A DNA stretch of 64,000 nt, from positions 566,555 through 630,554 of the forward strand of contig JABFOP010000159.1 in assembly GCA_016618385.1 (NCBI GenBank), written 5' to 3'. Within the stretch, counting starts at the first letter, position 1. Each line of letters starts with the position of its first letter. The notes below the pieces were generated by a model. The model did no database searches. It worked only from the letters and a program-made list of their open reading frames with translations, and had not been told where the DNA came from. This DNA comes from Nymphon striatum (Eukaryota). The position numbers and the translations under genes are program-made. Shown here piece after piece: positions 12,983 to 31,500 of the stretch.

Positions 12983-15900
12983 ATGAAGCCTTCCTTTCCG
13001 ACAAATATCGCTCCTCTGTTTTCTCTTCAGGAATCAAAACGAAGCGCAGCTATTGAAGAAACTGAAGTGATGGAGAAACTCAAAGATTGTCTTCTGTCAA
13101 ATTATGTTTATGAGTTCATTTGTAAATTGGAAGAAAGTGATAAAAAAAGAAAATGCCCAAAGTGTCATTTTGAAACAACATCTTTTAAAAGAATGATTGC
13201 TCATGTAATTAAGCACAAAGTCTGGATTTGTCGATTTTGTTGCAGGGCATTCACCAATTACAAATTATTCCATTGCCATGTTCAAGAACACACTTGTGAA
13301 TTTGGGTACTATTGTTCATTTTGCTTTTTTTCTAGGTTGAAATCTGGAGTTTCTAGTCACATTGAAACAACTCATACAGCTTCAGAAAAAGCAGTAGTGA
13401 AACAGTGCCCGCTTCATGTCATTAATGGTATACTTTATGGATACCTTTGTTTAACTTGTGGAATTATTAAGCTTTCAGAAGATATTTTTCAAAACCATTT
13501 CCTTAAATGTAAAGGTTCTAAGTCTGTAAGGATCACTATGTCTAAACCAATTCACCGCAAGATGGCTGATCGTCGGTTCCTTAAGAAAATGAGTGCTGCC
13601 AAGGATGTGATTCAACGGATAAAAAGGAAGCGCAGATTTAAAGAAATTGGAAAATTTAAACTTCGCTCTCCTGGTGTAATAAAGTGTGAAATGTCACCAA
13701 ATGCTGATTCATCTGACTCTAAGAAATGTGTGAAAAAAATTGCAAATCTACCTGTGATATTGCCAAAAGATGAAAAGTCTATTTCATCTTCAACAGATAT
13801 AAAAAATATTATCAAAAAACAGAGTCCCAATACAATATCAGGTCCACAGTTATCAGCAGAGAAAACTGAAAGTAAAATTTTGGCTAATTTACCTTCATCA
13901 GAAATCAAAAATGTTGAAGAAATAATGAATACTAATGAAATGCCAGGTCCAGGAATGACGAACACTAATACGACGTCAGGTCCAGGAATGACGAACACTA
14001 ATACGACGTCAGGTCCAGGAATGACAAACACTAATACGATGCCAGGTCCAGGAATGACGAACACTAATACGACATCAGGTCCAGGAATGACGAACACTAA
14101 TACGATGCCAGGTCCAGGAATGACAAACACTAATACGACGTCAGGTCCAGGAATGACGAACACTAATACGATGCCAGGTCCAGGAATGACGAACACTAAT
14201 ACGATGTCAGGTCCAGGAATGACGAACACTAATACGATGTCAGGTCCAGGAATTACAAACACTAATACGATGTCAGGTCCAGGAATAACAAACACTAATA
14301 CGATGTCAGGTCCAGGAATAACTAACACTAATACGATGTCAGGTCCAGGAATGACGAACACTAATACGATGTCAGGTCCAGGAATGACGAATACAAATGC
14401 AATATCAAGTCCAGGAATGATGAATACTAATGCAATATCAAGTCCAGGAATGACGAATGCTAATGCAATGTCAGGTCCAGGATTGCTATTGTTACAAGGT
14501 CCTCAAACTTTTCAAGTCTCACCTTCGTTGGCTGTGTCACAAGCAGGTGCCACATTGCCTTCCATGAATTCTTCAGTGCAACTATCACAGGCAAGTATAA
14601 TAAATGTTCAAAATTCTCCTGTTTATGTTTTTCAACCGGCCCAGACTATATCTGTTTCATCTCTAGTGTCATCACTCCCAATAGTAAGTAGCTCTCAAGT
14701 TGTTCCTCATGCTGTGCTATATCCAGAACAAGTAGCAAATAATAATACAATTATGAATCTAAGAAAAATGCTTGGAATAGCTGAAGCGGGAGGAATAATT
14801 GATTTGAATAGTTCAATGTCAACTTTGCAGCCTTCTTTAATTCCTTCAATTGCTGAATTAGCTGTTAAACAATCTAATATTCCACAGTCTTCAACACTTT
14901 TGTGTGCCAATCCTGCTCCTGATGAAAACTTACTCCCAGCCTCCACATTTAAAGAAAATCATGGTGCAAGTGATAGCATAAATAAGCCCTCTGCTACTAT
15001 TAATCAAGCTATTACTTCACGAAAGGAAGTTTGTGATAAAGTCAATTCAGATGAGCTCTGCACTGTGTCCACCGAAACTGAATCAGATATTTCTATATCC
15101 AAAAAGCCTCATACTTCGGCAACAGATTTTGCAAAATCAACTAAATCTACAGATAGTATTAAAAATAAATCCCCCAATAATTTTATTTCCGAACATCCTA
15201 CTGTTAAATTAAAGGCTAAAAGTGACAAGTTGGATTCTTCTAAAATTTCAGCGAGTGAATCTCCATGCAAATCACAAAATGTAAGTCCTAATACTTCTGT
15301 TCGCGATTTATTAGATGATTGTGATAATGATAAACCAAATAAAGAATCTCAGTCAAACTACTTACCTTCCACTTTTGTCAGCCAAGATATTGTGATTCCT
15401 GACTATCAGGATAGCCAAGAAGACTCTGATGACAGTGACTTCCAATCCAATATTTCTTTTAGAAGCTCACGAAAACGAAAGAAAATTTCTGAAAATTCCA
15501 GTCATTCCATAGAATTCAAATCTCCTAAGTTTTCTTACGTTCCAGTTAAAAGTGAAAAATTTTCTCCAAAGAAAGTGGATACATCATCAGAAAGTTTTCA
15601 ATCGAGTAGTGTTACACTGCCTTCTAATATTTCTATGATTGACATAAATCAAACTACCCCATTACCAGAAAATGTGATTAGTACAGATGTTCGATGTCCA
15701 CAATGTAATTTGATGCAATCATTCACAGAATCTTCTCTCACCATGCATTTGTGTGAGCATTACAACCTCAATTGCTATGCCTGTGGTTTATGTGGTAAAG
15801 AATTGAAGGATCAGAAAGTTGTTGATTCTCATGCACTGGCAGAGCACAACCGTAAAGTAATACCGTATCGAGTTTTACGCTGCCCAGATTATATAAAGAT

Positions 15901-16480
15901 CATAGTTTCTGATGTCTTCTCTAAGCAAGAAAATATATCAGAAAGTCCACCGAGTGATCAAGAAGTAGCTCTGTTGAAATGCACAATATGCAAAGAAGAT
16001 TTTAAGACTAAACACACCCTTCGCTTTCATCTCAGAACATATCATTTTAAAAAAGCACGATGTGGTGTGTGTGGTGAGGCATTAGCATATCCTAGTACTG
16101 TAAGAAATCATCATGCCGTCAAACATGGTAGTCGTGTTCCAGTAAAGATTGCTGCCAATCCAAATTTTGATGATGAAGAATTCAAGAAGATCTTATCAGA
16201 AATGATTGCTTCATCCTTGAAGTCTTCAGGTGAAAGTTTGCCCCTTGCTTCAAGTCCGACTTCTTTGAAGAAGCAAAGAAAGGGTAAAACACATGACAAA
16301 GTTTTCATCCGTCAAAAAAAGAGCACATCTTCAACAAAATCTTCTGATGTAGATAATATTAATGAGAACAGTGATATTGTACGGATATCATTATCTGAAT
16401 TTCGGAAACGGTTACCTGAGTGTAAGGTTGTTCTCAAACCTTTGAGATTTCAGCTTGATAAAGATTTTAATTTTGCTTAA
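12983..16480 (+). CDS. C2H2 zinc-finger protein, 1165 aa, terminal exon. The exon probably begins at acceptor 12962/12963 (ttttatttcAG). N-terminal C2H2-like fingers (CPKCHF...H..H; CRFCCRAF...HCH; CSFCFF...H), a long S/T/N-rich low-complexity linker, then 4 C-terminal C2H2 fingers (CPQCNLM..HLCEH; CGLCGK..HALAEH; CTICKE..HLRTYH; CGVCGE..HAVKH). Stop TAA at 16478-16480.
   Basis: Longest ORF in the window, with no stops over 3.5 kb. C-x2-C...H-x3-5-H spacing read directly from the translation. AATAAA-like signal about 160 bp downstream (~16641). Confidence 0.6.
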   Translation: MKPSFPTNIAPLFSLQESKRSAAIEETEVMEKLKDCLLSNYVYEFICKLEESDKKRKCPKCHFETTSFKRMIAHVIKHKVWICRFCCRAFTNYKLFHCHVQEHTCEFGYYCSFCFFSRLKSGVSSHIETTHTASEKAVVKQCPLHVINGILYGYLCLTCGIIKLSEDIFQNHFLKCKGSKSVRITMSKPIHRKMADRRFLKKMSAAKDVIQRIKRKRRFKEIGKFKLRSPGVIKCEMSPNADSSDSKKCVKKIANLPVILPKDEKSISSSTDIKNIIKKQSPNTISGPQLSAEKTESKILANLPSSEIKNVEEIMNTNEMPGPGMTNTNTTSGPGMTNTNTTSGPGMTNTNTMPGPGMTNTNTTSGPGMTNTNTMPGPGMTNTNTTSGPGMTNTNTMPGPGMTNTNTMSGPGMTNTNTMSGPGITNTNTMSGPGITNTNTMSGPGITNTNTMSGPGMTNTNTMSGPGMTNTNAISSPGMMNTNAISSPGMTNANAMSGPGLLLLQGPQTFQVSPSLAVSQAGATLPSMNSSVQLSQASIINVQNSPVYVFQPAQTISVSSLVSSLPIVSSSQVVPHAVLYPEQVANNNTIMNLRKMLGIAEAGGIIDLNSSMSTLQPSLIPSIAELAVKQSNIPQSSTLLCANPAPDENLLPASTFKENHGASDSINKPSATINQAITSRKEVCDKVNSDELCTVSTETESDISISKKPHTSATDFAKSTKSTDSIKNKSPNNFISEHPTVKLKAKSDKLDSSKISASESPCKSQNVSPNTSVRDLLDDCDNDKPNKESQSNYLPSTFVSQDIVIPDYQDSQEDSDDSDFQSNISFRSSRKRKKISENSSHSIEFKSPKFSYVPVKSEKFSPKKVDTSSESFQSSSVTLPSNISMIDINQTTPLPENVISTDVRCPQCNLMQSFTESSLTMHLCEHYNLNCYACGLCGKELKDQKVVDSHALAEHNRKVIPYRVLRCPDYIKIIVSDVFSKQENISESPPSDQEVALLKCTICKEDFKTKHTLRFHLRTYHFKKARCGVCGEALAYPSTVRNHHAVKHGSRVPVKIAANPNFDDEEFKKILSEMIASSLKSSGESLPLASSPTSLKKQRKGKTHDKVFIRQKKSTSSTKSSDVDNINENSDIVRISLSEFRKRLPECKVVLKPLRFQLDKDFNFA
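13935..14478 (+). repeat. In-frame 33-bp coding minisatellite, about 16 tandem units encoding (S/P)GPGMTNTNT(M/T), inside the zinc-finger exon.
   Basis: Near-identical 33-nt units (ggtccaggaatgacgaacactaatacgatgtca) read directly. The protein shows GPGMTNTNTxS repeated. Confidence 0.9.
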
Positions 16481-21846: not shown

Positions 21847-22739
21847 GGCATGCATCTTTGAAATAACCCCCCTTCCCTCATAATAAATTACACAAATTCG
21901 TAAATTAGGTGAACTGGTCAATTTAAGCAACCCTTTGAGAGCAAATTTTCTCCAAAGCAGAAATTAAAATTAACTTAAAATTATAATCTTAAAATTAACT
22001 CCCTATTTTTGATTTCTCGGACATTTTTCATCCGAGTTTGGCCTTGGAAATACCCCGCCTTCCCCGAGAAAATCGGAACGCGCATGCGGCCCTTAAATGT
22101 ACTTGAGTGGGTGAGGCGGGATCCAAGCTCGCTGCATTATTCCCCCTGATCTTTGTTCCCCAATAGTTGATATTAGTGCTTGAAACATCACACTGAGCTA
22201 CTTATAGAATTATTTTCATTACTTCTATTTATCTAGTTGAGCGACCACTGACATATTTAGTTGAAGATCTTTTGTCAAGAAGGTCATTAATATTGGCGAC
22301 CTGTCATTGCTTTTATTATCCCCATTCACAGATTTCCTCTGTGTTCGTCTTGGCGGATTTATAACAAATGAAAAAGGGAAACTATCCGAGCGATTGCAGT
22401 TTAGATCTTGCGCAATTACCTGATTTATTATGCAAGGCTTCTTATTTTTGTATTACAGATTTGAGATTAATCTTGGCTTATACCATTAACCTTGCATAAA
22501 TGGCCTTCCTGTAAAACGGGATCTATCAAATAGAGCAGGGTGCCCGGATGGATAAGCAACTTCCTACCTGCGTGAGGAATCTGATTTATCCACGCATGGA
22601 TCTCACTCAAATCTTCTACTCATTTCTATAATATCTTTTTTTTTTTTATTTGCACATCGAAAAAATGGCACATATGTTTAGAAAATAGGTAAAAAACAAA
22701 ACAAAAGTTTACAAAAAGGCAGAAATATATACGTATATA

Positions 22740-25162
22740 TGTTACAGTCAATCTGTCAACCCAGACATTTGGCCAAATGCCTAGGCATTTGGTCAAATGC
22801 CCGTGGTAGTCAGGCATTTGATCAAATTCCTAAAAAATTCAGGCATTTGGCCAAATGACTAAAATATATGGTCAGGCATTTGACCAAAAGCCTGAAATAA
22901 TAAAAATAATAAAAAAATAACATTGACAATACAGCAAAATTATTTATTTTACTACAACCAGTGAAAAAATCATGAACAGATCTACTTGATCTAAGACCAT
23001 ACTACAGCACATACGAAATTCAGCACATGAGTAAGTTTTAAAGGTCGATTGTTAAGAAAATAGCAAGACTACTTGACAAAATACTTACATAAAGCAATAC
23101 CACATGCATCAAATAAAAACTGACATTCAAATAATTGGCAGACTAGACTAGCCCTAGGAGAGTCGGAACGTATCATTCCGAATAGGCAAGTCACATGTTA
23201 TGTCTTGGTAGTGAGTTACTTATTGGAGCAGTTCAAGCTGGAGTGACACCGACTGTTACATTTAAGATTGTTCTTGAAACACTTGCACCTGTTTGTTTTG
23301 CATCTAGAGGTACCAGAACAGTTGCACTTCACAAAGCCTTGGCCACCACTCTGGGACTCTATACCGACAGCAGAACGAAGAGACACGGTGATGTCGGTTT
23401 TGATGTCAGACAGGGTAAGGAGTTTCTGCGGGCACAGATCGAATTGGTTCCTGGAATACTTGCCATTCAAGACACCAGCAGGACAGGCAATGGAATACTG
23501 TTCACTGTCACTCACTTCAACGATTACACCAATGATGTTCCTTGGATCTCCACGGCCTCGATCTACAGATGGAATAGGCACGGCCACATTGTCGCCAACA
23601 ACTCCGGCTTTCATCACTACCTTACTCCGCTTCACCATTCTTTCTGCTTGCTGATGCTGTGCTTCTCTGGCTAGCTTACGTTTCCTGTTAATGTTCTGAC
23701 TATTTGGCAGGTCTGCTGAATTCGAGGGGGGCTGGTCAGTTGGTTGTGAGGTAGGCTGGTCTGTTGAATCTGAGGTGGGCTGGTCTGTTGAATCTGAGGT
23801 GGGCTGGTCTGTTGAATCTGAGGTTGGCTGGTCAGTTGGTTGTGAGGTAGGCAGGTCTGCTGAATCTGCTGAGTGGGGGCTGTCCACAACATTCAGGAGA
23901 TCATCCTCTGACTGTAGCTTGTGAAGGATGTCATGCGGAAGTGACGTCGAACTCAGCCCAACCTTGGCTTCAATGCCAAACAGAGCAGAGTATGGCGACT
24001 GCTTGATGCTGGCACTGTAGCTGGATTTCTTCATGAATTGGACAAACCGGATGCCAACTGACCAATCGGTGGTCTTGTTTTCGCTCATCCAGGCACACAA
24101 CATGTCCTTAATGTCGGAGTTTGCCCTTTCAACAGAGCCTTGACTCTGCGGATGTCGTGGCTTTCCATGAACAAGTAAGAGGCCTGTCCACAGCTCTTTC
24201 AGTTCACTGATCACTGCAGCTGTAAATTCAGATCCATTGTCACTCTGTAGGATCTGAGGAGCACCAAACAATAGAAAAATGTCCATCAGCTGATAGGCAA
24301 CCTCAGCAGCTCTCTTTGATGTAAGCGGGCGAAGGACACAGAACTTGGTCAGGTGATCTTGGTACACTAAAATCCACTTGTACGCACCTTGGGGTAAAGA
24401 CTGCATGTCAACCAGGTCGACTTGGCCGCGGGAAGTGAAGTCCTTGGAAAGAATCGGTCGAACAACAACCCCTTTGGTTGTAGGTCTTTTCCGTTTGCGC
24501 TGACAGTGGATGCACAGAGACAATTCCACAGAATCACGGGTGATGTTACAGTACTTTCTTGTGATTTCTTTCAACATACGATCCCTGCCGCCATGGCCAG
24601 TTGCAACGTGGGCTCTGTTGATGATATCGTATGTCTCTTCGATGTGAACGTAGTATAAGAGCTGCTCATCTGGGGATTCCCGCTTCTTGATAAGTCTCTC
24701 AGAATCACCGCACTGTAGCACTTCATACTTGGCCAAAAGGTAGTAGCCTTGGTGGGTCTTTGTTGATGGGTCACTGGTCAGACGCTTGACTTCTTCTATA
24801 ATGGAGTAGTACTGGTTCTTAGGAATGAGGACCTTCTTCAGCACCTCGTATTTATCAAACAGCGCTCTCTGAAACGTCTCTGCAGCGGTCGAATCTTCCT
24901 TAAAGTTAAAAATCTGCATATTTTTAACCACCTCATTTTCGTTTGCAAGTTACGGTGTTACGGTGTTTCGTTGAAATTAAGTGTTTGACATATTGACTAA
25001 AAGCATTCAGGCAATCCCTCTAACAATATGTCCAAAATTTCAGTCTTTTGGCCAAATGCCTACATTTTTTAGGCATTTGATCAAATGCCTGACCACAACG
25101 GACATTTGACCAAATGCCTAGGCATTTGGCCAAATGTCTGGTTTGACTGATTGACTGTAACA
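22740..25162 (-). mobile_element. Ginger-like cut-and-paste DNA transposon, apparently intact (2423 bp). Termini 5'-TGTTACAG...CTGTAACA-3'. TIRs ~125-145 bp (22740-22885 / 25020-25162) contain 3-4 copies of the palindromic motif AGGCATTTGGCCAAATGCCT. 4-bp TSD TATA (22736-22739 / 25163-25166).
   Basis: TIRs, TGTNR terminus and TSD read directly. A single uninterrupted integrase-type ORF lies between the TIRs. Confidence 0.8.
23216..24931 (-). CDS. Integrase-like DDE transposase (571 aa). N-terminal HHCC zinc-binding motif (HVATGH...C..C), then a retroviral-type DDE core (VDLVDMQ; ILQSDNGSEF; QSQGSVERAN) and an SPYSALFG motif (~PFELLYG). It has a PTSDSTDQ low-complexity repeat and a Cys-rich C-terminus (CNCSGTSRCKTNRCKCFKNNLKCNSRC).
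   Basis: ORF track. The motifs match the rve/integrase-core family by memory. The LLYYV stretch may correspond to the Ginger YPYY motif. Confidence 0.8.
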   Translation of the reverse strand: MVKNMQIFNFKEDSTAAETFQRALFDKYEVLKKVLIPKNQYYSIIEEVKRLTSDPSTKTHQGYYLLAKYEVLQCGDSERLIKKRESPDEQLLYYVHIEETYDIINRAHVATGHGGRDRMLKEITRKYCNITRDSVELSLCIHCQRKRKRPTTKGVVVRPILSKDFTSRGQVDLVDMQSLPQGAYKWILVYQDHLTKFCVLRPLTSKRAAEVAYQLMDIFLLFGAPQILQSDNGSEFTAAVISELKELWTGLLLVHGKPRHPQSQGSVERANSDIKDMLCAWMSENKTTDWSVGIRFVQFMKKSSYSASIKQSPYSALFGIEAKVGLSSTSLPHDILHKLQSEDDLLNVVDSPHSADSADLPTSQPTDQPTSDSTDQPTSDSTDQPTSDSTDQPTSQPTDQPPSNSADLPNSQNINRKRKLAREAQHQQAERMVKRSKVVMKAGVVGDNVAVPIPSVDRGRGDPRNIIGVIVEVSDSEQYSIACPAGVLNGKYSRNQFDLCPQKLLTLSDIKTDITVSLRSAVGIESQSGGQGFVKCNCSGTSRCKTNRCKCFKNNLKCNSRCHSSLNCSNK

Positions 25163-27559
25163 TATACACACATATTCTGCACAATTAAAATCACATACAG
25201 TGTTAAAATTATTATTATGGTTACAAAATTATTATAAATATTAAATTACAGAATTATTATTATTATAAATTTTAAATTACCAAATGGTGTTAAAAATCGA
25301 CATTATAAACGCAGATATGCATGTACAATTCAAAATAATTTCAACATTTCACTCATCTAAAGAAACTAATTTGTAGTAATTTTTCAAAAAGCTATTTATT
25401 TTCAAATTCTTTCATAAAATGTATAGTTCATAGAGTATGAATAATAACATTTCAACATTTACGACTAAATTTTGGTTAGAAATTGCAAAATTTTCATTTT
25501 GAAATTTTCATGCTATGTTTCGGGCTTCATTTCAAAATATATGCCATATTCACATATTTTGACAAAATTTCATATCAAATGGGAACTCATTACATATCCT
25601 CTATCAATAACATAAATCAAAATCCGGCTATACCAAATAAAGAAGGAAGCAATGAGATCGTACTATTTTTTTTTTTTAATTTGCGGACGTGACCGATACA
25701 TTTACTTCTTGCTTTTATAGGTCAATAATGTTTATCTAGCAATCACGTAGTGTAGAAACAGTCTAAGGTCATAAGCCCAATACACAGACCTACTCATCTG
25801 ATTTGGACCTTGTACCTAATCGTGTTGTGCGCAATCGGGTTGAGAACTTTCTCTTCGAGTGTGACAGACGTGTCAATTTTTGGAACTAAAAGTTTACTTT
25901 CTCAAAAGTTTTTCATTCATCAAAATACGACAGGTGCCCCAGCCTCGCCTACTAGTTGCTTAAAACCTGCCACATTTTTTTTTTTATCAAAATCCAATGT
26001 TTTTAAAGTGAGAAAGAAATGCATCTAAAAATTGCTATGCTTAGATCTCACTCAAATCTTCTACTCATTTCACTCATCTAAAGAAAATAATTCGAGTATT
26101 GCGTTGCGACAGGGTCATGTTGTCATGTGTAATATACATATATAGAGGATATCAAATTGGAACGAATTACATATCCTCTATATCACATAATATCTTAAAA
26201 ACATTGAAAATAATTAAAAAAACAATTTATGGATTCAATTTCCATTCTAACATTATTATATGTGACCAAACGACTCCTTTGTAGCATTGGTTTATTGTAT
26301 AGATTACAACAATCCGCGTAAAAATAGTTCCATTAATTAAGAGATATTCAACAGTTCCACAAGAAAATATGTTAATATCATATCATATCCAATACGGCTT
26401 TTATAGGATGGAATCCTGTAGCCGTTCATAACAAGTCTTCCGTGCTGCTCTGCTATGTGGCATATAATTTGAAATTAGTAATATCAATAACAGTTATGCC
26501 TGAAACATAGAATATTTAACAAATGCATATAGTCCATGAGCCAGCCATCAACATTTTGGAGTTGACTACCAGAAAGAAAATTGTGAGTAAAAAATTATTT
26601 ACAAAGTGACGTCAGTCATTCATAAATTTCTTCTGCTTTTTCTCATTCTCAAAACTGATCGGGCGCGGTTAGGTAAATATTTCTTTTATTATAATAAATA
26701 TTATAAATAATATGAATGTTTATATTAGCTAGTAAAACGTGGCATATAAATAAGTGTGTGTCGGTGTATAAGAAATGCAATTAAAATTTAAACGCCAAAG
26801 AAGTAATAAATTAATAAAAAAGTATTTAAAGTAATTAGTGCATGATCGTGGCATTCAAATCTAGAACATATCATAGGTCATAACCGTGATAACGCTTTAC
26901 AGTTTACGTGTTAATTAACTGCTTCACATTTTCGGATAAATACTCATCCAAAATGTTATAACAAAATGAATTCCTATTTGATATGAAATTTGTGAAACTA
27001 GCCAACATTGTATTTCAGCGAGCTAATCATAAATTCACACTCCTAATGTCAATATATAATATTTAACAACGATTTACGGTGTATTTAGCTAGCATTATCA
27101 AGAAAAAAAGATGGCACTTATTTTACTGTGAGCGGAGGAATATGTGATTCTTTTTCTTACTGTGATCATCATCATTCTCTCTGTCTTACAGTTTAATATA
27201 CATTTGTATAGGAATAACTTTGTTTTTTCAATCTTTTTTTATATTACACACGTGTAATATAAAATTGATTGGAAAAACAAGGTTAATCCTAAGCAAAGTC
27301 ATATTACACATGTTCACAATTATTAACCTGTAAAAACGCATATTATGTGATATACATATATATTTATTTGATCTACAAGCGTATGTGAAATGTAGTTATG
27401 AGATAATTGTGAAAATGAACACATACATACATTAAAATAAAATAAGGAACAAATTACAAAAGGAGTTTGAAGAAGTGAGCAGAAGCAGGGTGTCAAGGTT
27501 GACTCAAGGGTGACTCCAATTAAAAAGGAACTAATAACTAATTAATAATACAATACAAA

Positions 27560-30289: not shown

Positions 30290-31500
30290 GATTTTCTGAA
30301 CGCTCTTCACAGCTGAAGTGTATCCAACAGTTTACTCTCAGTACTCTCCTACTCTTCTTAAACAAGTAAAAGTAGTACCTGTATTTAAGAATAAAGGCTC
30401 CCTTTTTGACTAAACAATTATCGACCAATATCTTTACTCTCCAATATTGATAAAATTTTTGAAAAGCTTGCACACAAAAGAGTAACATCATACCTTAATT
30501 TTAAGAAAATTATAAAAAATGAACAATTTGGTTTCCGCAGTAAACACTGAACTGTGCATGCTCTCATAAGCCTTAGAGAAAACATTCGTAAGGCTCTATA
30601 TAGACAAAGGTAAACTGTCATGTGGGGTTTCCATTGATCTACAGAAGGCTTTTGATACCGTTGATCACGAAATTTTACTAATCAAACTTAGGCATTATGG
30701 AATAAGGGGCGTTGCCAATATGTGGTTTAGATCCTACCTCTCTGAAAGCAAGCAACTTGTTTCCCTCTCCGGTTTTTCCTCTACTCTTATTTTAAATGGT
30801 GTCCCCCAAGGCTCTGTATTAGGCCCCCTTTTATTTTTACTTTATATCAACGATCTACCCAACTCCATCAAATTTTCCGAAACTTGCCTTTTTGCTGATG
30901 ACAATAGCCTACTTTATTCTGATTTTGACCTTAAATTGATAGAACAAATGATGAACCGTGATCTTGAACATCTTGTCAACTGGCTAAATGCCAACAAAAT
31001 TTCACTGAATGTTTCTGAAACTGAAGTTGTCCTCTTTCGAAATGCCCGTAAACGAGTCCACTATGATATTAATCTGAAAATAAATAATCAACCACTCATC
31101 ACTTCTTATGTTAAGTACTTATGATACTTACGATACTTATGATACTTACGATAATGATATTAAATGGGTCATGGTCCCATCATTTAATATCATTCTCAGC
31201 TCGAATCAATACAGTTAATAACACTAATAATCATTAAAGTATCCTTTCTCCACAAATGTATATACGCAAGAGCAGTGTGCAGCGACTGTGACGTAACGAC
31301 TTGTGGAAAGACACGTCACAGCGTGACGTATCCACAATGGCAGCTCCAGAGTAGTTGATTTTAAAATATGTTTAAAAATATTAAATGAACTAGAAAAAAA
31401 TTTTAAAAATCAGGATTTGTTGTTTGATATATGTACTATGGGTTGGGAAAGTTTTTTTTTATACACCCAATGAGTGGAGTATGCCTTTAAGTGATCAGAA
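30290..31500 (+). mobile_element. 5'-truncated LINE (family 1). Frameshifted RT domains 1-6 (…FIDLQKAFDTVDHEILL.KL; GVPQGSVLGPLLF; FADDNSLL; SETEVVLF) to 31125, an internal deletion, then the family-specific 3' tail 31160-31500 ending …CAATGAGTGGAGTATGCCTTTAAG.
   Basis: ORF 30720-31124 plus upstream frames carry RT motifs. The tail matches 62340-62660 and 19655-20566. Confidence 0.7.

What the first reader, a model, noticed from the sequence alone, without database searches (positions are those of the whole stretch)
22736..25166. Apparently intact Ginger-like DNA transposon: single 571-aa ORF, matching TIRs and TSD
All hallmarks of an autonomous, recently active element are present in one compact 2.4-kb unit.
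- The uninterrupted ORF has a complete HHCC zinc finger, a D,D(35)E integrase core (DNGSEF…QGSVER) and the PFELLYG-like SPYSALFG motif.
- The ~125-145 bp TIRs are about 90% identical and begin 5'-TGTTA (the TGTNR terminus).
- Perfect 4-bp target duplications (TATA) sit on both sides.
- The TIRs are built from iterated copies of a perfect palindrome (AGGCATTTGGCCAAATGCCT), a plausible repeated transposase-binding site.
- The protein ends in an unusual Cys-rich module (CNCSGTSRCKTNRCKCFKNNLKCNSRC) after a PTSDSTDQ repeat. This does not look like the PHD/OTU C-termini I associate with described Ginger transposases.
Integrase-type cut-and-paste transposons are rare, so an intact copy is a good candidate for an active element in this genome.
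Basis: partly seen in the sequence, partly recalled or inferred. Interest (0 to 1): 0.75.

Follow-up and report, generated by a model that had tools for sequence, protein, structure and literature searches.

The report
Ginger2 cut-and-paste transposon, complete copy
This is a complete copy of an already known kind of jumping gene (a Ginger2/TDD DNA transposon that uses a retrovirus-like integrase), probably in a sea-spider genome; it is real and well preserved but ordinary, and this copy carries two changes that may have disabled its enzyme.

Summary
A 2,423-bp element (22740-25162) has 132-nt terminal inverted repeats (89% identical) that start TGTTACAG, TATA duplications on both sides, and one uninterrupted minus-strand ORF.

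The protein is an integrase-type DDE transposase. It matches PFV integrase in sequence (E 9e-22) and in predicted fold (E 2e-17). It belongs to Ginger2/TDD, not Ginger1:
- The catalytic core is 78% identical to Repbase Ginger2-1_PMon and 28-33% to Ginger1.
- The rebuilt target ATATAC fits Ginger2's RTATAY preference.
- GPY/F and YPYY motifs are absent.

The "unusual" features are family-wide.
- The Cys-rich tail is invariant in about 50 homologues and gives sub-threshold tesmin/TSO1 CXC matches.
- Five related elements or element ends have 20-bp near-palindromes from nucleotide 24 at a 29-bp period. A sixth has only a partly visible array.

Corrections:
- The first ATG gives 567 aa, not 571.
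- The triad is D,D(36)E.
- The quoted palindrome never occurs exactly.
- This copy alone lacks a conserved Phe-Lys in the zinc finger and has N302K, so its activity is doubtful.
- Relatives are abundant in arthropods and molluscs, so the class is not rare there.

Verdict: a new member of a known kind, of low to moderate interest.

The parts
22736..22739 (.). Left target-site duplication, TATA
   Evidence: Read directly. It equals 25163-25166, and the match stops at the fifth base. The rebuilt empty site ...GTA[TATA]CAC gives A-TATA-C, which fits RTATAY.
22740..22871 (+). Left TIR. It lies at the 3' end of the element relative to the transposase gene and starts TGTTACAGTCAATC.
   Evidence: 132 nt, 89% identical to the reverse complement of 25031-25162. 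The repeat finder I1 gives 139 nt at 91%. The TGTTA start fits the TGTNR terminus.
22763..22893 (.). Array of five 20-bp near-palindromic units: 22763-82, 22783-802, 22812-31, 22841-60 and 22874-93. These are nt 24, 44, 73, 102 and 135 of the element.
   Evidence: The same kind of array starts at nt 24 with a 29-bp period in L001, L002, L004, L006 and L020; L003 shows only part of one.
23216..24919 (-). Transposase gene, from the first ATG (24917-24919) to the stop codon (23216-23218): 567 aa, in one exon. The ORF stays open upstream to a GTG at 24931 (571 codons).
   Evidence: Homologues align over 97% of its length with no sign of introns.
24647..24904 (-). N-terminal folded domain (aa 10-95 in 571-codon numbering): three helices and a beta hairpin. 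It is the most variable folded part of the protein.
   Evidence: AlphaFold pLDDT is 90-97 for this stretch. Mean identity to homologues is 36%. The full-length Foldseek alignment to PFV integrase spans about 470 columns.
24503..24610 (-). HHCC zinc-binding domain (H108, H113, C140, C143). The window-private 2-residue (Phe-Lys) deletion lies at the L137/S138 junction (24518-24523).
   Evidence: Pfam Integrase_H2C2 scores E 0.0034 here, and 45 of 50 homologues match it. The deletion is seen against P0001 and 15 homologues.
23942..24439 (-). DDE catalytic core with D172 (24416-18), D231 (24239-41) and E268 (24128-30), i.e. D,D(36)E. It also holds the SPYSALFG motif and the private N302K change (24026-28).
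   Evidence: Pfam rve: E 2.7e-7, 31.2 bits, against a curated cut-off of 32.6. PFV integrase: E 9.3e-22 over aa 102-327. 78% identical to the Ginger2-1_PMon core. N302K.
23705..23872 (-). Disordered Pro/Thr/Ser/Asp-rich linker encoded by a 24-nt tandem repeat (TDQPTSDS units). Its length differs between copies.
   Evidence: the repeat finder D1 shows the 24-nt period. Pfam PT repeat. pLDDT is below 50. The Nymphon copies differ by 16- and 32-residue indels.
23435..23596 (-). SH3/Tudor-like beta-barrel (aa 446-499), the counterpart of the integrase C-terminal domain.
23219..23350 (-). C-terminal CXC-like zinc module (aa 528-571): C536, C538, C544, C549, C551, C558, C562, H563, C568, ending in N-K.
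   Evidence: All nine candidate zinc ligands are invariant in 31 homologues. Scanned alone, it hits Pfam TCR PF03638 in 24 of 31 members (best E 7.8e-5; window E 0.01) and preSET_CXC in 22 of 31. 805 cluster representatives carry it.
25042..25139 (.). Array of four 20-bp near-palindromic units: 25042-61, 25071-90 (a perfect palindrome), 25100-19 and 25120-39. Counted from the right end these are nt 102, 73, 44 and 24.
25031..25162 (-). Right TIR. It lies at the 5' end of the element relative to the gene and ends ...GATTGACTGTAACA.
25163..25166 (.). Right target-site duplication, TATA

Best explanation
The feature is a complete 2,423-bp Ginger2/TDD-superfamily DNA transposon inserted into an A-TATA-C site. 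The host is probably the sea spider Nymphon striatum or a close relative.

Its single gene encodes a retroviral-integrase-like transposase. The domains, in order, are: N-terminal domain, HHCC zinc finger, D,D(36)E core, disordered repeat linker, SH3-like domain and terminal CXC-like zinc module.

Inferred mechanism:
1. Transposase multimers bind the phased 20-bp near-palindromes in both TIRs and bring the ends together.
2. The DDE site frees the conserved 5'-TG...CA-3' ends.
3. The ends are joined to target strands 4 bp apart, in an RTATAY site.
4. Gap repair produces the TATA duplication.

The anatomy and the family assignment are shown here. Every biochemical step is inferred from knowledge of retroviral integrases and Ginger2 elements.

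This copy has an open reading frame but carries two private changes at conserved positions. It may therefore be catalytically impaired, and could then move only with transposase supplied by sister copies.
For: Anatomy:
- TIRs, TSD and single ORF.

Integrase homology:
- PFV integrase E 9.3e-22 in sequence.
- The full-length AlphaFold model (pLDDT 79.6) matches PFV intasome integrase at E 1.9e-17 over about 470 columns, and Ty3 integrase.
- rve matches in 50 of 50 homologues.

Ginger2 assignment:
- The core is 78% identical to Ginger2-1_PMon, 55-70% to other arthropod Ginger2 cores, and 28-33% to Ginger1 and an LTR-type integrase.
- The terminus TGTTA, the 132-nt TIR, the 4-bp TSD and the RTATAY target match the published definition.
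- The Bombyx/Rhodnius Ginger2 has TIR TGTTACGGTA, TSD TATA and a length of 2,442 bp.
- No GPY/F or YPYY motif.

Family-wide architecture:
- L001, L002, L003, L004 and L024 are complete elements with TGTTA termini and TATA flanks.
- L006 and L020 left ends and the L005 right end show the same palindrome array.

Other copies:
- P0001 and P0002 from Nymphon striatum are near-identical outside the repeat linker.
- P0001 lies at a different locus.
Against: - No second DNA copy from the same genome could be fetched. Copy number, insertion age and empty sites are therefore untested.
- The rve and H2C2 Pfam scores of this copy fall just below the curated cut-offs.
- The two TIRs are 89% identical, against 96-100% in the related elements.
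- The Phe-Lys deletion and N302K argue against full activity of this copy.
- The host identity rests only on 96%-identical annotated proteins.
Confidence: 0.9

Rival explanations
1. It is a structurally complete but dead copy. The ORF is open, yet the zinc-finger deletion and N302K have inactivated the transposase, so the element is at best non-autonomous. This rival concerns activity only, not identity.
For: - Phe-Lys is missing between the HH and CC pairs. P0001 and all 15 other homologues aligned there keep an aromatic residue at that position.
- Asn302 is present in 48 of 48 homologues and in P0001 and P0002. It also aligns with an Asn in PFV integrase.
- pLDDT dips to 66-84 around the deletion.
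Against: - The remaining H-to-C spacing of 26 residues is, to my own knowledge, still within the range seen in integrase HHCC motifs.
- The ORF has no stop or frameshift.
- All three catalytic residues and all nine CXC ligands are intact.
Confidence: 0.45
2. It is a domesticated host gene of the KRBA2/SCAND3 type, as the NCBI name of its closest relatives suggests, rather than a mobile element.
For: The closest database proteins are named 'KRAB-A domain-containing protein 2'. KRBA2 and SCAND3 do derive from Ginger2 transposases.
Against: - The gene sits between 132-nt TIRs with a TSD.
- No KRAB or SCAN domain is found.
- There are at least three near-identical copies at different loci.
- The database names are assigned by homology.
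Confidence: 0.03
3. It is a Ginger1 element. The reader compared it with Ginger1 C-termini.
For: It shares the TGTNR termini, the 4-bp TSD, the HHCC finger and the DDE core with Ginger1.
Against: - The TSD is TATA, not CCGG or CCGT.
- There is no YPYY or GPY/F motif.
- There is no OTU, Ulp1 or PHD domain.
- The core is 28-33% identical to Ginger1 but 78% to Ginger2.
Confidence: 0.01
4. It is an integrase remnant of an LTR retrotransposon or a Polinton/Maverick element that happens to lie between chance inverted repeats.
For: The protein resembles retroviral and Ty3 integrases in sequence and in fold.
Against: - There is no RT, RNase H, protease or polymerase B, and nothing but one ORF within 2.4 kb.
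- The repeats are inverted, not direct.
- Nine palindrome units were found against 0.01 expected by chance.
- The same ends recur in unrelated samples.
Confidence: 0.01

Closest known systems
Ginger2/TDD superfamily of DNA transposons (Bao, Kapitonov & Jurka 2010); closest curated entry seen is Repbase Ginger2-1_PMon from Penaeus monodon
   Same: - Integrase-type DDE transposase with an H2C2 finger.
- TGTNR termini, TIRs of 50-300 bp, a 4-bp TSD and an RTATAY target.
- Size of about 2.4-2.9 kb.
- No GPY/F or YPYY motif.
- 78% identity in the catalytic core.
   Different: - The host lineage is probably a pycnogonid.
- The family-specific palindrome is AGGCATTTGGCCAAATGCCT.
- The first spacer of the palindrome array is missing, so units 1 and 2 abut.
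- I found no mention of the phased palindromes in the 2010 Ginger paper, and no paper in the library that holds both 'Ginger2' and 'CXC'.
Ginger2 of Bombyx mori / Rhodnius prolixus and its MITEs (Genome Biol Evol 2013, PMC3845634)
   Same: The terminus is TGTTAC-GT, the TSD is TATA, and the autonomous copy is 2,442 bp against 2,423 bp here.
   Different: The TIR sequence diverges after about 9 nt. No MITE derivative is seen in this window.
Prototype foamy virus integrase and Ty3 integrase (solved intasomes)
   Same: The HHCC domain, DDE core and SH3-like C-terminal domain are shared. The predicted fold aligns over nearly the whole PFV chain. TG...CA ends and a 4-bp staggered integration are also shared.
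   Different: - It acts on a DNA element bounded by TIRs, not on a reverse-transcribed copy.
- The D-to-E spacing is 36 residues.
- It has an extra repeat linker and a terminal CXC-like module.
Tesmin/TSO1 CXC domain (LIN54, Pfam PF03638) and the MSL2 / pre-SET CXC domains
   Same: The Cys spacing C-x-C-x5-C-x4-C-x-C-F-x5-C-x3-C is shared. There are nine candidate ligands, as in the Zn3Cys9 cluster of MSL2 (PMC3447885). Pfam matches cover almost the whole TCR profile. CXC domains of this type bind DNA (PMC4974476).
   Different: - There is a single copy at the extreme C-terminus, not a tandem pair.
- One ligand is His.
- Scores are below Pfam's cut-off.
- By my own pattern alignment, with the LIN54 sequence taken from memory, the residue at the position of LIN54's minor-groove Tyr is Arg or Lys.
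Mammalian KRBA2 and SCAND3 (ZBED9)
   Same: Both derive from Ginger2 transposases. They are the source of the database names given to this protein's relatives.
   Different: They are single-copy host genes with KRAB or SCAN domains and no TIRs. This is a mobile element.

Membership tests
Ginger2/TDD DNA transposons | Encodes an integrase-type DDE transposase with an H2C2 (HHCC) zinc finger | tested here: met
   PFV integrase E 9.3e-22. Foldseek E 1.9e-17. rve E 2.7e-7 and H2C2 E 0.0034, both slightly below the curated cut-offs. HHCC and D172/D231/E268 are present.
Ginger2/TDD DNA transposons | The catalytic core groups with Ginger2 rather than with Ginger1, LTR-element or IS3EU cores | tested here: met
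   Pairwise identity to published core alignments: 78% to Ginger2-1_PMon, 34-70% to other Ginger2 cores, 28-33% to Ginger1, and 32% to an LTR-type integrase. This is an identity ranking, not a bootstrapped tree.
Ginger2/TDD DNA transposons | Terminal inverted repeats of about 50-300 bp with TGTNR termini | tested here: met
   132-nt TIRs that start TGTTA. Definition.
Ginger2/TDD DNA transposons | 4-bp TSD (5 bp in TDD-4 and TDD-5) | tested here: met
   TATA on both sides. The match cannot extend beyond 4 bp here, in L002 or in L024. Only one copy from this genome was available, and no empty site.
Ginger2/TDD DNA transposons | Preference for the AT-rich target RTATAY | tested here: met
   The rebuilt site is A-TATA-C. 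L001, L002, L003 and L004 also fit; L024 has C at the R position.
Ginger2/TDD DNA transposons | [quoted passage not shown] | tested here: met
   A pattern search of the protein finds neither motif.
Ginger2/TDD DNA transposons | Moves by cut and paste (excision and reintegration) | not testable with these tools
   This needs empty sites in other haplotypes, or an experimental assay.
Ginger1 DNA transposons | CCGG or CCGT target-site duplication | tested here: not met
   The TSD is TATA. Definition.
Ginger1 DNA transposons | YPYY and GPY/F motifs, and a C-terminal OTU or Ulp1 (with or without PHD) domain | tested here: not met
   No such motifs. No OTU, Ulp1 or PHD Pfam match.
Tesmin/TSO1-like CXC domain (Pfam PF03638) | Sequence match to the family profile above the curated cut-off | tested here: inconclusive
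   The window module scores E 0.01 and 16.5 bits against a cut-off of 23.5, covering profile positions 3-37 of 38. 24 of 31 homologues match, best E 7.8e-5. The whole protein shows no TCR match at E <= 1.
Tesmin/TSO1-like CXC domain (Pfam PF03638) | Nine zinc ligands forming a trinuclear cluster, and DNA binding | not testable with these tools

The most novel reading that the evidence does not exclude
This Ginger2 clade may recognise DNA in a way not described for integrase-type transposases. Each end carries four or five 20-bp palindromes, starting exactly at nucleotide 24 and repeating every 29 bp. These would be read by transposase dimers.

The variable N-terminal domain (36% mean identity) would give family specificity. 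The near-invariant terminal CXC zinc module (68%) would contact a constant feature: the AGG/CCT arms, the TGTTACAG tip, or the narrow minor groove of the TATA target.

The same module also occurs as an eight-fold array fused to a caspase domain (P0121). That hints at exchange between transposases and host proteins.
Probability: 0.3. Interest if true: 0.5.

Novelty: new member of a known kind. Interest (0 to 1): 0.25.

Why it matters
- It supplies a well-bounded reference copy of a Ginger2 family in a chelicerate lineage (probably Pycnogonida), where annotation currently labels these genes as the host protein 'KRBA2'. One such gene model is a chimera with a transporter gene, so recognising the element improves gene annotation.
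- Restoring Phe-Lys and Asn302 would give a consensus that is a reasonable candidate for an active integrase-type DNA transposon.
- The conserved phased-palindrome ends and the CXC-like tail give concrete, testable handles on how Ginger2 transposases recognise their ends. I did not find this treated in the literature I could search.

Tried and rejected
- Other copies in the same genome: the exact-sequence look-ups for P0001, P0002 and P0040 found nothing on record. Copy number, age and empty sites could not be addressed.
- Other copies, fragments or MITEs in the window: blastn and tblastn with the element masked found nothing.
- P0001 as the same locus: rejected, because its MFS-transporter part has no match in the window.
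- PDB sequence search with a profile of the C-terminal 163 residues: only noise, E >= 0.28.
- Metagenome scan: 80 loci were returned, but most contigs are cut inside the element. Only L024 gave a clean new complete element, and L005, L006 and L020 gave single ends. L009, L012 and L030 gave other inverted-repeat pairs that I did not trust or pursue.
- TSD of 2 or 6 bp: more than 4 bp is excluded in three informative cases. Fewer than 4 bp cannot be excluded without an empty site.
- TIR divergence (89%) as an age estimate: rejected, because the two TIRs of a cut-and-paste element are not made identical at insertion.
Full report
**1. The observation**

The sequence shows a compact element from 22740 to 25162 (2,423 bp).
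- The left end reads TGTTACAGTCAATC and the right end GATTGACTGTAACA.
- Ungapped, the two ends are inverted repeats over 132 nt at 89% identity.
- The repeat finder extends this to 139 nt at 91% because the TA-rich flanks are themselves partly palindromic.
- TATA lies immediately outside both ends (22736-22739 and 25163-25166). The flanks stop matching at the fifth base, so the duplication is at most 4 bp.
- Joining the flanks rebuilds ...GTA[TATA]CAC, i.e. A-TATA-C.

One minus-strand ORF (23216-24931) fills the interior without interruption.
- The 571 codons are counted from a GTG, which reflects the bacterial start rule of the ORF tool.
- The first ATG is codon 5 (24917-24919), giving 567 aa.

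Nine 20-bp units lie within 3 mismatches of AGGCATTTGGCCAAATGCCT, five in the left TIR and four in the right, against 0.01 expected by chance.
- None is an exact copy of that sequence.
- The only perfect palindrome is the GATC-centred variant at 25071-25090.

With the element masked, no other copy or fragment is found in the 64-kb window.

**2. What the protein is**

Pfam results:

| Model | E-value | Bits | Curated cut-off |
|---|---|---|---|
| rve | 2.7e-7 | 31.2 | 32.6 |
| Integrase_H2C2 | 0.0034 | 17.9 | 25.5 |

- All 50 aligned homologues hit rve and 45 hit H2C2.
- Against solved structures, the best sequence match is prototype foamy virus integrase (E 9.3e-22, aa 102-327). That alignment lines up D172, D231 and E268 with the viral catalytic residues and shows one extra residue between the second D and the E, so the triad is D,D(36)E.
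- An AlphaFold model built on 50 homologues (mean pLDDT 79.6) matches the PFV intasome integrase chain at E 1.9e-17 over about 470 alignment columns, and also Ty3 integrase.

The domain order is therefore:
1. A folded N-terminal domain (aa 10-95, pLDDT above 90).
2. The HHCC finger.
3. The DDE core.
4. A disordered linker encoded by a 24-nt tandem repeat.
5. The SH3-like domain.
6. A 44-residue Cys-rich tail.

**3. Which family**

Bao et al. 2010 define two Ginger groups.

| Feature | Ginger1 | Ginger2/TDD |
|---|---|---|
| TSD | CCGG or CCGT | 4 bp (5 bp in TDD-4/5) |
| Target | GC-rich 4 bp | RTATAY |
| Motifs | YPYY and GPY/F | neither |
| C-terminal domains | OTU or Ulp1, sometimes with PHD | not listed |
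| TIRs and termini | about 40-270 bp, TGTNR | about 45-300 bp, TGTNR |

Every testable Ginger2 criterion is met here, and the Ginger1-specific ones are not.

I took the catalytic-core sequences from the published alignment of Kojima 2023 and compared them pairwise with the window's core:

| Reference core | Identity to window |
|---|---|
| Ginger2-1_PMon (Penaeus monodon) | 78% |
| Other arthropod and nematode Ginger2 | 55-70% |
| Most distant Ginger2 | 34-45% |
| Ginger1 | 28-33% |
| An LTR-type integrase | 32% |

The Ginger2 element published from Bombyx and Rhodnius has TIR TGTTACGGTA..., TSD TATA and a length of 2,442 bp, close to the values here.

The nearest database proteins are 'KRAB-A domain-containing protein 2' of the sea spider Nymphon striatum (96% and 90% identity in the hit table), followed by hundreds of 'KRBA2-like' proteins of crustaceans and molluscs. 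KRBA2 is itself a domesticated Ginger2 transposase, which explains those names.

**4.

*The Cys-rich tail.*
- All eight Cys and the one His are invariant, and the protein ends in N-K, in 31 diverse homologues.
- The tail is near-invariant across about 50 homologues spanning chelicerates, crustaceans, molluscs and Lepidoptera.
- Scanned alone, the module matches Pfam TCR (tesmin/TSO1 CXC) in 24 of 31 members. The best E is 7.8e-5; the window's is 0.01, over positions 3-37 of the 38-position profile. It matches preSET_CXC in 22 of 31. All scores are below the curated cut-offs.
- Nine ligands fit the Zn3Cys9 type of cluster described for the MSL2 CXC domain (PMC3447885). Tesmin-type CXC domains bind DNA through the minor groove of TT/AA steps. 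Both points are analogies, not tests.
- A profile of the module finds 805 cluster representatives at E <= 0.001. In almost all of them the module lies at the extreme C-terminus. Of ten hits scanned against Pfam, five showed rve, several below its cut-off.
- One hit (P0121) is a caspase domain followed by eight copies of the module.

*The palindromes.* I fetched related elements from unrelated assemblies and metagenomes. The complete ones are:

| Element | Size | First 16 nt | TIR length and identity | Flanks |
|---|---|---|---|---|
| L001 | 3,800 bp | TGTTACAGTAAGACTG | 140 nt, 100% | TATA / TATA |
| L002 | 7,464 bp | TGTTACAGTAAGAGTG | about 199 nt, 99% | TATA / TATA |
| L003 | 2,409 bp | TGTTACAGTAAGATAG | about 172 nt, 97% | TATA / TATA |
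| L004 | 3,202 bp | TGTTACAGGGTATCTG | about 148 nt, 96% | TATA / TATA |
| L024 | 2,465 bp | TGTTAAGCTCAAAGAT | about 47 nt | TATA / TATA |

- In L001, L002, L004, L006 (left end) and L020 (left end), 20-bp near-palindromes begin at nucleotide 24 and recur every 29 bp, at about 24, 53, 82 and 111.
- In L003 the scan picked out only the units at nt 24 and 144. AGG-led units are visible at the intermediate positions in its sequence.
- The L005 right end shows three units at the same 29-bp period.
- Examples are AGGGATTTCATGAAATCCCT, AGGGATTTGACTAAATCCCT, AGGGTAATTGTAATTACCCT, AGTAAATCTATAGATTTACT and AGGCATTCTATAGAATGCCT.
- The window element has units at 24, 44, 73 and 102 on both ends, plus 135 on the left. 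Its first 9-nt spacer is missing, so units 1 and 2 abut.
- The outer arms of the unit (AGG...CCT) are largely conserved, while its centre is family-specific.
- I found no mention of this architecture in the 2010 Ginger paper.

**5. Mechanism**

Shown here: the anatomy, the catalytic residues, the fold, the conserved termini and the target.

Inferred from retroviral integrase and Ginger2 knowledge:
1. Multimeric transposase binds the phased palindromes on both ends and synapses them.
2. The DDE site exposes the CA-3' ends.
3. The ends are inserted 4 bp apart into RTATAY.
4. Repair produces the TATA duplication.

Which domain reads the palindromes is not known.
- The N-terminal domain is the most variable folded part (36% mean identity). 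The core is at 71% and the CXC module at 68%.
- That fits family-specific recognition by the N-terminal domain, and a constant partner for the CXC module: the arms, the tip or the AT-rich target.
- This is a hypothesis only.

**6. Is this copy active?**

The family looks young. Outside the repeat linker, the window protein differs from the Nymphon proteins P0001 and P0002 at only a handful of positions. P0001 is a different locus, because its fused transporter part is absent from the window.

Two of the differences are private to the window copy and lie at conserved positions:
- Phe-Lys is deleted between the HH and CC pairs of the zinc finger. The aromatic residue is conserved in all 15 other homologues aligned there.
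- N302K replaces an Asn that is present in 48 of 48 homologues and in PFV integrase.

The ORF is therefore intact, but autonomy is unproven. I put the chance that this copy's protein is impaired at roughly even.

**7. Novelty and interest**

This is a new member of a known superfamily. In this part of the animal tree the superfamily is common rather than rare. The modest added value is threefold:
- a clean reference copy in a probable pycnogonid;
- the correction of 'KRBA2' annotations;
- the description of phased palindromes and a CXC-like tail as conserved features of the clade.

Noticed in passing
window 12983-16480 (+): A single 1,165-aa ATG ORF with several C2H2-like zinc-finger motifs and a long internal tandem repeat (GPGMTNTNT units, roughly aa 330-480). 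It is probably a host gene or a large exon.
   Followed up: no
window 30720-31124 (+): A 134-aa ORF that looks like a reverse-transcriptase fragment of a non-LTR retrotransposon (..[21 protein letters not shown]..FADD..).
   Followed up: no
P0121 (765 aa): A protein with a caspase domain (Pfam Peptidase_C14, E 3.6e-23) followed by eight tandem copies of the same CXC-like module that ends the transposase. The module therefore also exists outside transposases.
   Followed up: partly
P0001 (Nymphon striatum, 845 aa) compared with window 23216-24931: This public gene model joins the transposase, up to ...GGQGFV, to an MFS-transporter C-terminus. The join coincides with a GTGAAG donor-like site in the transposase ORF. 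It is most likely an annotation chimera between a transposon and a neighbouring host gene.
   Followed up: partly
window 23705-23872 (-): The 24-nt tandem repeat that encodes the TDQPTSDS linker varies in length between copies. P0001 has 16 more residues and P0002 has 32 more.
   Followed up: partly
L002 712-8175: A related element of 7.46 kb with about 199-nt, 99%-identical TIRs. It is three times the usual size, and its interior holds long (GTA)n and AT-rich microsatellites and further inverted repeats, which suggests nested insertions or expansions.
   Followed up: no
window 22763-22802 and 25100-25139: In both TIRs the first two palindrome units abut, with 20-bp spacing. In the related elements where the spacing could be read it is 29 bp. 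The loss of the 9-nt spacer is mirrored on the two ends.
   Followed up: partly
P0112 and P0113: Two distant homologues carry a Pfam Znf_SCAND3 zinc finger (E 3e-14). From the alignment it appears to lie in the variable linker region. It links this clade to the SCAND3 lineage.
   Followed up: no
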